DNA of 64,000 nucleotides from an uncultured Candidatus Binatia bacterium (GCA_965200965.1 OZ241744.1:3417222-3481221), one strand, 5' to 3'. Shown: positions 19,606-64,000, numbered from the stretch's first letter. Made by a program: numbers and translations. The notes: generated by a model not told the origin, from the letters alone.

Positions 19606-19688
19606 GGAGAGGTGCCCGAGCGGCCAAAGGGAGCAGACTGTAAATCTGCCGGCGTATGCCTTCGAAGGTTCGAATCCTTCCCTCTCCA
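19606..19688 (+). tRNA. tRNA-Tyr (anticodon GTA), long variable arm
   Basis: Acceptor ggagagg/cctctcc, anticodon stem gcaga/tctgc, loop ctGTAaa. The core closely resembles E. coli tRNA-Tyr as I recall it. Confidence 0.9.
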
Positions 19689-19710
19689 TTCCTCAGGGAC
19701 GAATCCCAGG

Positions 19711-19787
19711 GCGGGAATAGCTCAGTTGGCTAGAGCGCGAGCCTTCCAAGCTCGGGGTCGCGGGTTCGAGTCCCGTTTCCCGCTCCA
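19711..19787 (+). tRNA. tRNA-Gly (anticodon TCC), CCA encoded
   Basis: Acceptor gcgggaa/ttcccgc, anticodon stem cgagc/gctcg, loop ctTCCaa, 3' tCCA. Confidence 0.9.
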
Positions 19788-19939: not shown

Positions 19940-21173
<1,234 letters not shown>

Positions 21174-34197: not shown

Positions 34198-35431
<1,234 letters not shown>

Positions 35432-61596: not shown

Positions 61597-62454
61597 TCAG
61601 TTCTTGCCAATCTTGCCAATCAACTCATCGCCGGTTCTGTTGACATAGGCGAGCCAGTCGGCCTCGGTTTTTGCCGCCTTAAACGGAATCAGCCGGTCCA
61701 CGCCGAGTTCGGCAAAGCGTTTGACCGTGTTGGCATCGAGCCGCCCCTTGGGCGTCACGCTGATCTCCAGTGCGCCTAACTCGGCGGGACGCGCGACCTG
61801 TTGGGCAGCGTGTTTGATGCCCAACAGGCATTGGGCGGTGGCCTCGACATCAAGGGCAAAGCCAAACCAGCCCGTGCCGTGGCGCACGCTGCGTTTGTAG
61901 GCTTGTGGGGTATGGCCGCCAAAGACCACCGGCGGGTGGGGCTTCTGAAGCGGTTGGGGACGAGACTGAATATCGCTGAACGAGACAAACTCACCCCGGT
62001 GGGCCGGCTCGTCCTGGGTCCAGACGGCTTTCATGGCTCGCAGATAGTCAATGGAACGCGGGCCTTTGTGGCTGAACGGAATGCCGAGCGCGTCAAACTC
62101 CGGCTTGAGATAGCCGATGCCCAGACCAAAGATGAGCCTCCCGCCAGACACCACGTCAAGGCTGGCCAGCTCTTTGGCCAGCACCAGGGGATTCCGCTGG
62201 GGCAGGATGATGATGCCAGTGCCCAGCTTGATCGTTCGGGTCTGCCCGGCCAGAAAGGCCAGGGTAACGGTCGGGTCAAGCATCGGGTAGTGAGGTGGGA
62301 GCGGGGAGGGCGGGGCCTGAGGATCGGGCAAGACCACATGCTCACCGGTCCAGATTGATTCAAAACCGGCCGCTTCAGCCGCCTGGGCGACCCGCACCGA
62401 GGCTGCCGGGTCACTGGCGATGCCCATATTGATGCCAAACAGTCCAAATTTCAT
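61597..62454 (-). CDS. Luciferase-like monooxygenase (LLM) family oxidoreductase, probably F420-dependent class
   Basis: Translation reads MKFGLFGINMG...AEAAGFESIWTGEHVV...LGTGIIILPQRNPLVLAKE.ASLDVVSGGRL.FGLG.G. The ATG at 62454 was chosen. Confidence 0.8.
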   Translation of the reverse strand: MKFGLFGINMGIASDPAASVRVAQAAEAAGFESIWTGEHVVLPDPQAPPSPLPPHYPMLDPTVTLAFLAGQTRTIKLGTGIIILPQRNPLVLAKELASLDVVSGGRLIFGLGIGYLKPEFDALGIPFSHKGPRSIDYLRAMKAVWTQDEPAHRGEFVSFSDIQSRPQPLQKPHPPVVFGGHTPQAYKRSVRHGTGWFGFALDVEATAQCLLGIKHAAQQVARPAELGALEISVTPKGRLDANTVKRFAELGVDRLIPFKAAKTEADWLAYVNRTGDELIGKIGKN

Positions 62455-62615
62455 ACGCGCTCCCTCCTGCTCGGGTCTTCTCCTGGACGCCGGGAGCCTA
62501 GCCGGTTCTCGCGTGCCGCGCAAGATTGCCGGCCACACCGCGAGGTGTTCTTGGACCGTGCCTGGCGTTGCATTCCAGTGAAAAAATTGTCAGGTTAGAG
62601 GCTTTGGAGGAAGCC

Positions 62616-63497
62616 ATGTCACACACGGTCAATTACATCACCCGCATCACCAACACCTATGCCAAGCTCGGCTACAAGCCCTACACATGGGTCCACAACC
62701 CCCACCCGCCGCCGTGGGTACCGCTGGGCAAGCCGCTGTCCGAATGCCGGCTGGGTTTGATCGCCTCCGGCGGGCTGTACATGACGGGTCAGATCGCCTT
62801 CCACTTCAAAGACGACCTGTCGTTCCGGGCGATTCCCACCGATGTGGATACGCGCGAGCTGCGCACCGCCCACTTTGCCTATGACCAGACCGACGCCCGC
62901 AAAGATCCCAATGTGGTTTTTCCCATTGACCCCCTGCGCCGGCTGGTCAAAGAGGGTGCGCTTGGCGGGCTGGCCACCCATGCCTACACCTTTATGGGCG
63001 GTATTTATTCGTCCCGGCGGGTGCGTGACGAGCTGGCCCCGCAGCTGACCGAGCGTCTGCTGGCCGAGCGGGTTGACGCCGCGCTGCTGGTCCCGGTTTG
63101 ACCGGTATGTCATCAGTCCGTGGGACTGATCGCCCGCCACGCCGAGGCCGCCGGCATCCCGACCCTGAGCATGGGCAGCGCCCTGGACATCATGCGGGCA
63201 GTAAACCCGCCGCGGGCCGCCTTTCTCGATTTTCCCCTGGGCCATACCATCGGCGAGCCGCACCAACCAGCCCTCCAGCGCGCCATTCTGCTCCAGGCGC
63301 TGGACGGCTTCATGTCTCTGACCACGCCGGGCAGCATCAAGCGCCTACCCTTCCGCTGGTCACAGGGGGACGGCTGGAAAGAGACAGCCTCAAACGACGG
63401 CGACACCCGCACCGAGCGCTACGACACGCCGCAGTACCAGATGGAAGAAGACCGCCGGCTGGCCGAGCAGAAGAGTTGCGAGACCTGTTCGGTCTGA
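62616..63497 (+). CDS. Putative selenoprotein (in-frame UGA at 63099-63101, U-P-V-C motif), resembling the GrdB/PrdB selenoprotein-B reductase family
   Basis: Track ORFs 62526..63101 and 63120..63497 share one frame. Only the TGA separates them. GGAGG precedes the ATG at 62616, and a SECIS-like hairpin follows the TGA. The family call is from memory. Confidence 0.65.
63109..63133 (+). promoter_or_regulatory. SECIS-like hairpin downstream of the in-frame UGA
   Basis: atcagtcc (63112-63119) pairs perfectly with ggactgat (63123-63130) around the apical gtg. The stem extends through a C/C mismatch. The apical G lies 19 nt after the UGA. Confidence 0.55.
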
Positions 63498-63514
63498 AGG
63501 AGGGTGGGATAAGG

Positions 63515-64000
63515 ATGCGAGAGATGCGCACCACAGCCCTGATCACGGGTGTGGCCCTGGCCGGCCTGCTGCTACTGGCCGGTGTGGCGCGGGCCGACGG
63601 CGACCGCCGCGGCTTCTATATCGGGGGTGAACTGGGTCTGGCCAACGGCCTGTCTTCGGATTCCTTTCTGTCGGGCATCAGCCACCCGACCCGCTGCGAT
63701 ACCCTGCTGTACGCCGACCCGAGCCAAGCCCCCCAAGACGCCCGCTGCACGACCCGGGAGCCGAGAAAAATCTACACAACCGACTTTGAGCCGGGCATCG
63801 GCTTTGCCGGGGCGGTCAGTGCCGGCTACGCCCTGGAGGCCGGGCTGCGCTTTGAAATTGAGTATCTGTACCGCACCCAGGGCGGCGACGCTTCAACCCT
63901 GCCGGCGGCCCGGGGCAATGAGACGACCCAGACCAAGTCGAATGAGTGGCTCAGGCCGCCGGCGGCCCGCTTTGCCAACTTTCACAGCCACCAAGTCTTT
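63515..64000 (+). CDS. Secreted / outer-membrane beta-barrel-like protein, N-terminal part (3' end outside the window)
   Basis: My own translation: MREMRTTALITGVALAGLLLLAGVARA|DGDRRGFYIGGELGLA...GFAGAVSAGYALEAGLRFEIEYLYR. It shows a signal peptide and alternating beta-strand pattern. The frame stays open to the window end. Confidence 0.6.
   Translation, partial: MREMRTTALITGVALAGLLLLAGVARADGDRRGFYIGGELGLANGLSSDSFLSGISHPTRCDTLLYADPSQAPQDARCTTREPRKIYTTDFEPGIGFAGAVSAGYALEAGLRFEIEYLYRTQGGDASTLPAARGNETTQTKSNEWLRPPAARFANFHSHQVF

What the first reader, a model, noticed from the sequence alone, without database searches (positions are those of the whole stretch)
62616..63497. Likely selenoprotein: in-frame UGA, U-P-V-C redox motif and a SECIS-like hairpin, split into two ORFs by the track
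ORFs 62526-63101 and 63120-63497 are in the same frame, and TGA 63099-63101 is the only stop between them. Reading through gives ...AALLVPV-U-PVCHQSVGLIARHAEAAGIPTLSMG..., which is a U-x-x-C motif.

Ten nucleotides after the UGA, an 8-bp perfect stem (63112-63119 / 63123-63130) begins, with a G/U-containing apex. The apical G lies 19 nt from the UGA, within the range I recall for bacterial SECIS elements.

The protein resembles, from memory, the selenoprotein-B (GrdB/PrdB, Gly_reductase) family. It sits next to an LLM-type oxidoreductase with no other grd/prd genes visible. It may therefore be one of the poorly characterised stand-alone GrdB-like reductases.
Basis: partly seen in the sequence, partly recalled or inferred. 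Interest (0 to 1): 0.6.

Follow-up and report, generated by a model that had tools for sequence, protein, structure and literature searches.

The report
Stand-alone PrdB-like selenoprotein gene
The two adjacent ORFs are one gene for a selenocysteine-containing relative of the proline/glycine reductase B proteins; this selenoprotein family is already known but biochemically uncharacterised, and gene callers routinely cut it in half at the UGA.

Summary

**Gene structure**
- Window 62616-63497 (+) is a single 293-codon gene.
- The in-frame TGA at 63099-63101 encodes selenocysteine in a U-P-V-C motif.
- It is followed by an 8-bp, 3-nt-loop SECIS hairpin (63112-63130).

**Evidence**
- The TGA is kept in 98 of 100 homologous loci, from Candidatus Binatia (the closest relatives) to Acidobacteriota, Pseudomonadales, Entotheonella and others. 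Two loci have TGC.
- The downstream half is under purifying selection.
- The hairpin shows compensatory changes. It is absent from the one Cys and one Thr variant whose DNA was folded.
- The Sec aligns exactly with the Sec of a GrdB-type gene that lies next to grdE in a relative.
- The genome carries selA, tRNA-Sec(UCA), selB and a Sec-containing selD.

**Classification**
- It is not a true D-proline or glycine reductase subunit. It scores below the PrdB and selenoprotein-B cut-offs.
- The 99%-complete genome has no PrdA/GrdE-type or GrdA gene.
- It belongs to the "PrdB" UxxC family already catalogued in marine metagenomes (Zhang and Gladyshev, 2005 and 2008). Its function is unknown.

**One new lead**
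This gene and three of its four paralogous groups repeatedly sit next to luciferase-like (LLM) oxidoreductases.

Verdict: real, and a new member of a known kind. Interest is modest.

The parts
62606..62611 (+). Shine-Dalgarno-like GGAGGA, 4 nt upstream of the start codon
   Evidence: Read directly from the sequence.
62616..63497 (+). Complete selenoprotein gene: 293 codons plus the terminal TGA. It encodes a stand-alone PrdB/GrdB-family protein.
   Evidence: Translation is. Orthologues match over residues 1-293 at 70-89% identity, each with exactly one TGA. Pfam PF07355 scores 44.9 bits and TIGR04483 scores 164 bits. The AlphaFold2 model has mean pLDDT 91.5.
63099..63101 (+). In-frame TGA read as selenocysteine (U162), first residue of the U-P-V-C motif
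   Evidence: TGA in 98 of 100 homologous loci and TGC in 2. Most full-length database homologues have Cys here. It falls in the same column as the Sec of a GrdB-type gene next to grdE. In the model it sits at the N-cap of helix 163-178, after strand 155-159.
63108..63110 (+). TGT codon for Cys165, the presumed resolving cysteine of the UxxC motif
   Evidence: Invariant in the 20-sequence alignment A1, as are H166 and Q167.
63109..63133 (+). SECIS hairpin. Upper stem 63112-63119 / 63123-63130 (8 bp), loop GUG 63120-63122, and two lower pairs 63109-63110 / 63132-63133 across a C/C mismatch.
   Evidence: Fold. Over 86 distinct homologous sequences, 98.5% of cells are paired. Compensatory changes are U-A to C-G (11 sequences), G-C to A-U (4) and U-A to A-U (1). 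Slid controls reach 43% or less. Synonymous sites in the stem are frozen, while the wobble bases in the loop and after the stem vary. The hairpin is lost in the Thr variant and the Cys variant examined. Paralogues and a GrdB-type gene keep a hairpin at the same offset with other sequences.
63495..63497 (+). True stop codon (TGA) of the gene
   Evidence: Orthologues stop within a few codons of this point with TGA, TAG or TAA.
61597..62454 (-). Divergently transcribed luciferase-like (LLM) oxidoreductase gene, a possible functional partner
   Evidence: PF00296 at 167.5 bits. It is in the same position in the genus's orthologous loci, apart from one (L022) where none was scored. LLM genes also flank paralogous groups A', B2 and C and orthologues in other lineages.

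Best explanation
**What it is.** Window 62616-63497 is one gene for a 293-residue selenoprotein of the GrdB/PrdB (PF07355) superfamily.

**How the UGA is read.** During translation SelB-GTP-Sec-tRNA(Sec) is recruited by the hairpin that begins 10 nt downstream. Its loop starts with a conserved GU. UGA 63099-63101 is therefore decoded as selenocysteine instead of terminating. This step is inferred from sequence and comparative data, not measured.

**How the protein probably works.** It carries U162-P-V-C165 at the N-terminus of an alpha-helix. By analogy with GrdB/PrdB it most likely acts as a reductase: the selenol attacks a substrate carbon or heteroatom. Cys165 then resolves the adduct into an intramolecular Se-S bond. 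That bond is re-reduced by a thiol or flavin electron donor. This mechanism is an inference by homology.

**How it differs from the characterised enzymes.** Proline and glycine reductases need a pyruvoyl/GrdE-type partner or GrdA. This genome has neither, so the substrate and partner must be different.

**Candidate partner.** The recurrent neighbours are luciferase-like (F420/FMN-type) oxidoreductases. They are the best candidate for a functional partner, but this is only a lead.
For: **The UGA is kept and the reading frame continues**
- One TGA is kept in every orthologue of 7/7 same-genus genomes, and nearly every match in the 34 of 41 related genomes that have one carries an in-frame TGA. 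Matches run across residues 1-293.
- 98 TGA against 2 TGC in 100 loci from many phyla.
- The downstream half is conserved: median 61.8% amino-acid identity, against 67.7% upstream. Synonymous changes are plentiful, e.g. 37 synonymous to 14 non-synonymous in L023.

**The hairpin is a conserved structure**
- Covariation is seen in the hairpin: 98.5% of cells paired and 3 compensatory pairs.
- The hairpin has decayed in the Thr (ACA) variant, although the SVGLIA peptide is kept. It is absent from the Cys variant.
- A GrdB-type gene next to grdE has its Sec in the same column and an 8-bp, 3-nt-loop hairpin at the same offset.

**The organism uses selenocysteine**
- Sec machinery: selA, tRNA-Sec(tca), selB, and selD with U in AAGUAGK.

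**Family and fold**
- Family: PF07355 at 44.9 bits; TIGR04483 at 164 bits over positions 16-234 of 238.
- The model is confident (pLDDT 91.5). U162 sits at a helix N-cap.

**No classical partner**
- No PF09338 or PF04723 match in G000 or G002. PF09338 does ring next to GrdB-type genes in G017, G025 and G035.

**LLM adjacency**
- Adjacent LLM genes: A in relatives 8/24, A' 2/5, C 8/13, B 3/17.
- The literature lists a 'PrdB' UxxC selenoprotein family (PMC1088965, PMC2398784, PMC13188914).
Against: - There is no direct evidence of selenium incorporation, transcription or read-through.
- No Rfam SECIS family matched, even at E <= 10.
- The single-sequence fold energy is not exceptional.
- The loop is only 3 nt, shorter than in the E. 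coli fdhF SECIS (from memory).
- The catalytic mechanism is inferred only from homology to PrdB/GrdB, and the protein fails their specific family cut-offs.
- LLM genes are very abundant in these genomes: 77 in 3.6 Mb here and 80-230 candidates in relatives. Most orthologues outside Binatia have no LLM neighbour (11/80). The partnership may therefore be partly coincidental and is certainly not universal.
- Related genomes are not independent samples.
Confidence: 0.88

Rival explanations
1. The TGA is a genuine stop. The locus is then two separate small genes (161 aa and about 125 aa), or a pseudogene split by a nonsense mutation.
For: Gene callers in ENA, JGI, NCBI and Logan report hundreds of 161-aa products ending at this TGA. 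A GTG at 63120 could start a second ORF.
Against: - The TGA is at the same column in 98 of 100 loci across phyla, and the same frame continues after it.
- Full-length homologues have Cys there, with no break.
- The 18 nt between the TGA and the GTG are conserved as coding sequence (P-V-C-H-Q-S), including the invariant C165/H166/Q167.
- The downstream half is under purifying selection.
- A pseudogene would not keep one identical nonsense codon for this long.
Confidence: 0.03
2. The TGA is an assembly or sequencing error for TGC/TGT, and the protein is an ordinary Cys-containing homologue.
For: Cys forms of the family exist (L099, L101, P0006-P0011 and others).
Against: - The same TGA appears in independent assemblies of 7 same-genus genomes and of dozens of other taxa.
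- Sec forms share the hairpin, which the Cys form examined lacks.
Confidence: 0.01
3. It is the selenoprotein subunit (PrdB) of a bona fide D-proline reductase or of a glycine/betaine/sarcosine reductase. JGI annotations of its homologues say so.
For: The best NCBIfam hit is TIGR04483 PrdB: 164 bits with full-length coverage of the model. JGI names many homologues 'D-proline reductase (dithiol) PrdB'. The UxxC motif is shared (PMC13188914).
Against: - 164 bits is far below the equivalog cut-off of 300, and TIGR01918 scores 58.1 against a cut-off of 65.45.
- There is no PrdA/GrdE (PF09338) and no GrdA (PF04723) in a 99.3%-complete single-contig genome or in G002. The same PF09338 search finds grdE next to long GrdB-type genes in G017, G025 and G035.
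- The motif is UPVCHQS, not the UxxCxxC described for GrdB (PMC13188914) and seen in the GrdB-type relative.
- The neighbours are LLM, exonuclease III and an outer-membrane beta-barrel protein, not prd or grd genes.
Confidence: 0.04
4. The UGA is read through by a mechanism other than Sec, for example near-cognate Trp/Cys insertion or a reassigned code.
For: None specific. The downstream frame is plainly coding.
Against: - TGA is used as an ordinary stop in this genome, including by this gene itself and by neighbours.
- tRNA-Sec and selA/B/D are present.
- A conserved, covarying hairpin sits at the SECIS distance.
- The column is Cys in the non-TGA homologues.
Confidence: 0.02

Closest known systems
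Environmental 'Proline reductase PrdB' UxxC selenoprotein family (Zhang and Gladyshev: Sargasso Sea 2005, PMC1088965; GOS 2008, PMC2398784; also reported in Anaeromyxobacter and Geobacter uraniumreducens, PMC1794560)
   Same: - A short PrdB-sized protein with Sec in a UxxC motif and Cys homologues.
- Abundant in non-clostridial, largely aerobic environmental bacteria: 42 genes in the Sargasso Sea data and 235 in GOS.
- The Pseudomonadales, Myxococcota and Acidobacteriota homologues found here fit that description.
- Function unknown.
   Different: I could not align this gene to the published sequences directly, so identity of the family is inferred from motif, size, Pfam assignment and taxa. 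Those papers do not discuss the missing PrdA partner, the LLM neighbourhood or members from Binatia.
PrdB, selenoprotein subunit of clostridial D-proline reductase (TIGR04483; C. difficile PrdB has Sec151, PMC11229817)
   Same: - Same fold family and about the same core length; model positions 16-234 of 238 are aligned.
- UxxC motif with the Sec at the equivalent place: residue 162 minus an offset of 14 gives about model position 148.
- The Sec is presumably the nucleophile.
   Different: - It scores 164 bits against a cut-off of 300.
- It has an extra ~30 N-terminal and ~45 C-terminal residues.
- No PrdA pyruvoyl proprotein is found in the genome. prdC/D/E/F/H were not searched.
- The organism is a Binatia-type bacterium, not a Stickland fermenter.
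GrdB/GrdF/GrdH, substrate-specific selenoprotein B of glycine/sarcosine/betaine reductase (PF07355, TIGR01918)
   Same: - Homologous C-terminal domain: window residues 76-229 match HMM positions 263-417.
- The Sec is in the same alignment column as in a GrdB-type gene next to grdE.
- The SECIS hairpin has the same geometry and offset.
   Different: - It lacks the ~260-residue N-terminal part of GrdB.
- The motif is UxxC, not UxxCxxC.
- No GrdA, GrdE or other partner genes are present.
- It scores below the TIGR01918 cut-off.
Bacterial SECIS elements recognised by SelB (E. coli fdhF type; GpU recognition in the Moorella SelB-SECIS structure; both from memory)
   Same: A hairpin within the coding sequence immediately 3' of the UGA. 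The stem starts about 10-11 nt after the UGA, and a conserved G-U opens the apical loop.
   Different: The loop is only 3 nt and no bulged U is evident. No Rfam SECIS model matched. SelB binding was not tested.

Membership tests
Bacterial selenoprotein gene (UGA decoded as Sec) | In-frame UGA conserved among orthologues, with a conserved coding frame downstream | tested here: met
   (98 of 100 loci have TGA). One search shows purifying selection downstream.
Bacterial selenoprotein gene (UGA decoded as Sec) | Cys in homologues at the Sec column | tested here: met
   Cys in 15 of 19 full-length database homologues and Thr in 4. TGC in L099 and L101.
Bacterial selenoprotein gene (UGA decoded as Sec) | SECIS stem-loop just 3' of the UGA, supported by covariation | tested here: met
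   Paralogues and a GrdB-type gene keep a hairpin at the same offset. No Rfam family matched.
Bacterial selenoprotein gene (UGA decoded as Sec) | selA, selB, selD and tRNA-Sec present in the genome | tested here: met
Bacterial selenoprotein gene (UGA decoded as Sec) | Selenium physically present in the protein | not testable with these tools
   Needs 75Se labelling or mass spectrometry.
Pfam PF07355 GRDB superfamily | Score above the gathering threshold (22 bits) | tested here: met
   44.9 bits, but only residues 76-159 align to HMM positions 263-345.
TIGR04483 D-proline reductase PrdB (equivalog) | Score at or above the curated cut-off of 300 bits | tested here: not met
   164.1 bits.
TIGR04483 D-proline reductase PrdB (equivalog) | A PrdA pyruvoyl proprotein (PF09338) encoded in the genome or operon | tested here: not met
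   No match in G000 (99.3% complete, one contig) or in G002. The positive control rings in G017, G025 and G035.
TIGR04483 D-proline reductase PrdB (equivalog) | Accessory prd genes (prdC, prdD/E, prdF, prdH) | not tested
   Not searched. None is visible among the neighbours annotated.
TIGR01918 glycine/betaine/sarcosine/D-proline reductase selenoprotein B subfamily | Score at or above the cut-off of 65.45 bits | tested here: not met
   58.1 bits.
GrdB of glycine reductase | UxxCxxC motif and GrdA/GrdE partners | tested here: not met
   The motif is U-P-V-C-H-Q-S. No PF04723 or PF09338 match. The PF04723 search had no positive control.
Environmental 'PrdB' UxxC selenoprotein family (Zhang and Gladyshev) | PrdB-like protein with a UxxC Sec motif in non-clostridial environmental bacteria | tested here: inconclusive
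   Motif, size, Pfam assignment and taxa agree (PMC1088965, PMC2398784). No direct sequence comparison with the published set was possible.

The most novel reading that the evidence does not exclude
The stand-alone PrdB-like selenoproteins (this gene, its A' and B2 relatives and the 388-aa C paralogues) may form a distinct enzyme class. It would work without any pyruvoyl/GrdE-type subunit. Instead it would team up with luciferase-like (F420- or FMN-dependent) oxidoreductases. In group C an Amidohydro_2 enzyme would also take part. Together they would carry out a so far undescribed selenol-dependent bond-cleavage or redox reaction in aerobic or facultative soil and marine bacteria.
Probability: 0.2. 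Interest if true: 0.6.

Novelty: new member of a known kind. Interest (0 to 1): 0.3.

Why it matters
**Annotation.** This is a systematic error. Hundreds of database entries for this family stop at 161 residues, including NCBI records named 'selenoprotein B family protein'. The real product is about 293 residues with a Sec active site.

**Biology.**
- The 'PrdB' family ranks among the most widespread bacterial selenoprotein families (PMC9312934). Yet outside Clostridia it has no known partner or substrate.
- In this complete genome it occurs without PrdA/GrdE or GrdA, so it cannot be doing Stickland-type proline or glycine reduction.
- The repeated LLM neighbourhood gives a concrete, testable starting point for finding its function.

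**RNA structure and protein sequence.** The locus is also a clear example of a SECIS element constraining protein sequence:
- CHQSVGL(I/V)A is nearly invariant in the Sec forms of this orthologue group.
- The same segment is variable in Cys forms.
- The hairpin decays once Sec is replaced.

Tried and rejected
- **Rfam.** A scan of 62500-63600 at E <= 10 gave no SECIS family, only chance-level hits (Actino-ugpB at E 0.39, dauA, MEG3).
- **Single-sequence fold.** The energy against shuffles was not significant. The structure claim rests on the comparative evidence instead.
- **Solved structures.** A PDB sequence search found nothing at E <= 1. Foldseek of the confident model against the PDB found no match at E <= 0.001, with TM 0.32 or lower. 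No structural analogy could be drawn.
- **Universal conserved neighbour.** None was found across 81 diverse loci. Loci with a given neighbour within the 6-kb flanks: enoyl-CoA hydratase 16, LLM 13, acyl-CoA dehydrogenase 13, and lineage-specific genes otherwise. CoA-transferase plus nitroreductase (Cys form) and a CoA ligase (Thr form) are single observations.
- **An LLM gene flagged '1 TGA'.** The match at G000 424503-425345 only runs past its normal stop codon. It is not a selenoprotein.
- **Promoter, terminator and operator scans.** Scans of 62300-63800 and of the 161-bp divergent intergenic region gave nothing above chance.
- **Literature.** Searches for 'PrdB-like' selenoprotein, Binatota with selenocysteine, and selenoprotein B with LLM found no paper on this subfamily or on the association.
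- **Earlier findings of this scan.** Nothing relevant.

Full report
**1. The observation**

The sequence is as described. One search lists ORFs 62526..63101 and 63120..63497 on the + strand in one frame. Translating 62616-63497 with TGA read as U gives a 293-residue product, with a single internal TGA at 63099-63101 and the terminal TGA at 63495-63497. The local sequence is ...VDAALLVPV-U-PVCHQSVGLIARHAEAAGIPTLSMG....

The start is ATG 62616, preceded by GGAGGA at 62606-62611. It coincides with the start of the 161-aa fragments that gene callers report for this family.

The hairpin is real. 63112-63119 (AUCAGUCC) pairs with 63123-63130 (GGACUGAU) around a GUG loop, and two further pairs (63109-10 / 63132-33) lie below a C/C mismatch. 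Taken alone, the 55-nt stretch folds no better than shuffles (z = -0.09). A single-sequence view therefore cannot show significance.

**2. Is the UGA decoded?**

*The organism has the machinery.* The window lies in a single-contig 3.62-Mb genome that is 99.3% complete. It encodes:
- selA (582 bits), with a tRNA-Sec (anticodon tca) immediately beside it;
- selB (366 bits);
- directly downstream of selB, a selD (396 bits) that itself carries an in-frame UGA in the motif AAG-U-AGK.

*The UGA and both halves are conserved.* The read-through protein was searched in 41 related genomes, reading through stops. Orthologues were found in all 7 same-genus genomes, and 23 of 24 same-family genomes held a match. 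The top 24 matches run over essentially the full length at 70-89% identity, each with exactly one TGA.

A scan of species-representative genomes identified the closest relatives as Candidatus Binatia/Binatota MAGs (82-87% identity). It also found the family in many other groups:
- Entotheonella
- Deferrimicrobia
- Acidobacteriota (Thermoanaerobaculia, Multivorans)
- Pseudomonadales
- Myxococcota
- Chloroflexota
- Actinomycetes
- others

Of 100 loci examined, 98 have TGA at the column and two Desulfobacterales have TGC.

Among full-length proteins in the large protein database, the column is Cys in 15 of 19 aligned homologues and Thr in 4. C165, H166 and Q167 are invariant.

The 131 codons after the UGA are conserved almost as well as the 161 before it (median amino-acid identity 61.8% against 67.7%). 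They also show the excess of synonymous change expected of a translated frame, for example 37 synonymous to 14 non-synonymous differences against L023.

*The hairpin is under selection as RNA.* In 86 distinct Sec-type sequences:
- 98.5% of pair cells are standard pairs, against 43% or less when the 3' arm is slid.
- Three pairs show changes on both sides.
- The commonest is U-A to C-G in 11 sequences. It couples a synonymous His change (CAU to CAC) to an Ile-to-Val change (AUx to GUx) on the other arm.
- Another couples Gln CAG to CAA with Leu CUG to UUG.
- Synonymous positions inside the stem are otherwise frozen, while the wobble base of the loop Val codon and of the unpaired Ile codon vary freely.

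Nature supplies two controls:
- A variant with Thr (ACA) in place of Sec keeps the SVGLIA peptide, but its 3' arm has drifted to GGC CUC and the hairpin is gone.
- The Cys form examined has no hairpin, and Cys forms have a variable peptide after CHQ.

Four paralogous Sec-containing groups in the same bacterial class each keep a hairpin at the same offset with a different sequence. I call them A', B1, B2 and C.

A long GrdB-type gene lying next to a grdE-type gene in relative G025 has its Sec in exactly the same alignment column. It also has an 8-bp, 3-nt-loop hairpin (AUCGUUGC-GGG-GCAACGAU) at the same distance.

No Rfam SECIS family matched. I take that as a limit of the library rather than evidence against.

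**3. What the protein is**

- Pfam places residues 76-159 in GRDB (PF07355, 44.9 bits, cut-off 22).
- The best NCBIfam model is PrdB, TIGR04483. It covers model positions 16-234 of 238 but scores 164 bits against a cut-off of 300.
- The broader selenoprotein-B subfamily TIGR01918 scores 58.1 against 65.45.
- So it is a PrdB-sized member of the superfamily, with about 30 extra N-terminal and 45 extra C-terminal residues. It is not an equivalog of any characterised enzyme.

The AlphaFold2 model built from 20 homologues is confident (mean pLDDT 91.5, pTM 0.92). It puts U162 at the N-cap of helix 163-178, directly after strand 155-159. This is the classic setting of a redox-active CxxC-type motif. 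No solved structure resembles it by sequence or by fold.

The characterised relatives need partners:
- PrdB works with the pyruvoyl protein PrdA (PMC11229817).
- GrdB works with GrdE and GrdA (PMC13188914).

Neither PF09338 nor PF04723 is found in this genome or in a complete same-genus genome. The same PF09338 search does find grdE-type genes next to the long GrdB-type genes of G017, G025 and G035, so the negative result is meaningful.

In the window, the neighbours are:
- a NuoG-like protein;
- exonuclease III;
- a small hypothetical protein;
- a divergently transcribed luciferase-like (LLM) oxidoreductase (61597-62454, minus strand);
- an outer-membrane beta-barrel protein downstream.

**4. 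Likely mechanism**

Shown or strongly supported: Sec insertion at 162, directed by the 63109-63133 hairpin.

Inferred by homology: Sec162 is the nucleophile and Cys165 resolves the intermediate to a Se-S bond, which is then re-reduced. The many invariant polar residues suggest a real substrate pocket rather than a simple redox carrier. They are D66, D67, R71, H86, D97, H166, Q167, R174, E177, R200 and D205.

The substrate is unknown, and without a pyruvoyl partner it cannot be assumed to be an amino acid.

**5. A lead on function**

No neighbour is universal across 81 diverse loci. LLM-family genes recur in several independent arrangements, however:
- divergent upstream of the orthologue in this genus;
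- co-directional downstream in G025, in a clade of 'delta proteobacterium' MAGs and in an actinomycete;
- co-directional upstream in an Anaerolineaceae MAG and in group A';
- an Amidohydro_2, Sec-protein, LLM string for the 388-aa group C paralogue, including the copy in this genome;
- LLM genes on both sides of group B2.

Counts of loci with an adjacent LLM are 8/24 (A in relatives), 2/5 (A'), 8/13 (C), 3/17 (B) and 11/80 (A in diverse taxa).

The background is high. This genome has 77 LLM genes, about 2% of its genes, and relatives have 80-230 candidates. That gives roughly 4-8% chance adjacency per locus. Related genomes are also not independent. I therefore rate the association as a lead, not a finding.

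**6. Comparison with what is known, and novelty**

A 'Proline reductase PrdB' UxxC family is well documented:
- It was the third most abundant selenoprotein family in the Sargasso Sea data (42 genes, PMC1088965).
- It had 235 members in GOS (PMC2398784).
- It is reported in Anaeromyxobacter and Geobacter uraniumreducens (PMC1794560).

The present gene fits that family by motif, size, Pfam assignment and the taxa of its homologues. It is therefore a new member of a known kind, found in a Binatia-type genome.

Three points are not in those papers, as far as my searches reached:
- the explicit demonstration that the family occurs without any PrdA/GrdE/GrdA gene in a complete genome;
- the covarying SECIS, with its natural decay controls;
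- the LLM neighbourhood.

**7. Verdict**

This is a genuine selenoprotein gene, mis-split by ORF callers. Confidence that it is a Sec-decoding gene is about 0.9; the catalytic mechanism and the proposed partner are much less certain. Interest is modest (0.3). The family is known, so the value lies in correcting the annotation and in a testable hint about function.

Noticed in passing
Outside the window: G000:C1 about 980400-981600 (-), locus L045/L138: There is a second GrdB-like selenoprotein gene in the same genome (about 388 aa, motif LTPV-U-PLCTRT). It has its own hairpin (GCGUAC-CGUGA-GUACGC) at the same offset. It sits in a co-directional string of Amidohydro_2, Sec protein, LLM oxidoreductase. 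The arrangement is conserved in several relatives.
   Followed up: partly
Outside the window: G000:C1:3226676-3227602 (+), locus L009: selD lies directly downstream of selB and itself contains an in-frame UGA in the motif AAG-U-AGK. The organism's selenophosphate synthetase is therefore a selenoprotein too.
   Followed up: partly
L126:8001-9044 (protein P0003); also P0005, P0013, P0017: Some close homologues have Thr (codon ACA in L126) where this gene has Sec. In L126 the SVGLIA peptide is kept but the SECIS 3' arm has decayed. These look like post-Sec derivatives with a TxxC motif, and whether they are still active is unknown.
   Followed up: partly
Whole genome G000 and relatives: The luciferase-like (PF00296) family is extraordinarily expanded: 77 matches in 3.62 Mb here, and 80-230 first-look candidates in related genomes.
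   Followed up: partly
Databases: Hundreds of ENA, JGI, NCBI and Logan entries for this family are exactly 161-163 aa, because they are truncated at the Sec codon. Some are named 'D-proline reductase (dithiol) PrdB' or 'selenoprotein B family protein'. The annotation error is systematic.
   Followed up: yes
window about 20024-20905 and 34282-35400 (+): The selB model gave two strong EF-Tu-like matches (192-193 bits) inside the window, which suggests two tuf copies. tRNA-like hits lie just upstream of the first, at window about 19606-19784.
   Followed up: no
L127:6880-9684 (Desulfobacterales Cys form): The Cys-containing homologue overlaps the stop of an upstream family III CoA-transferase gene and is followed by a nitroreductase gene. 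This is a different operon context from the Sec forms.
   Followed up: no
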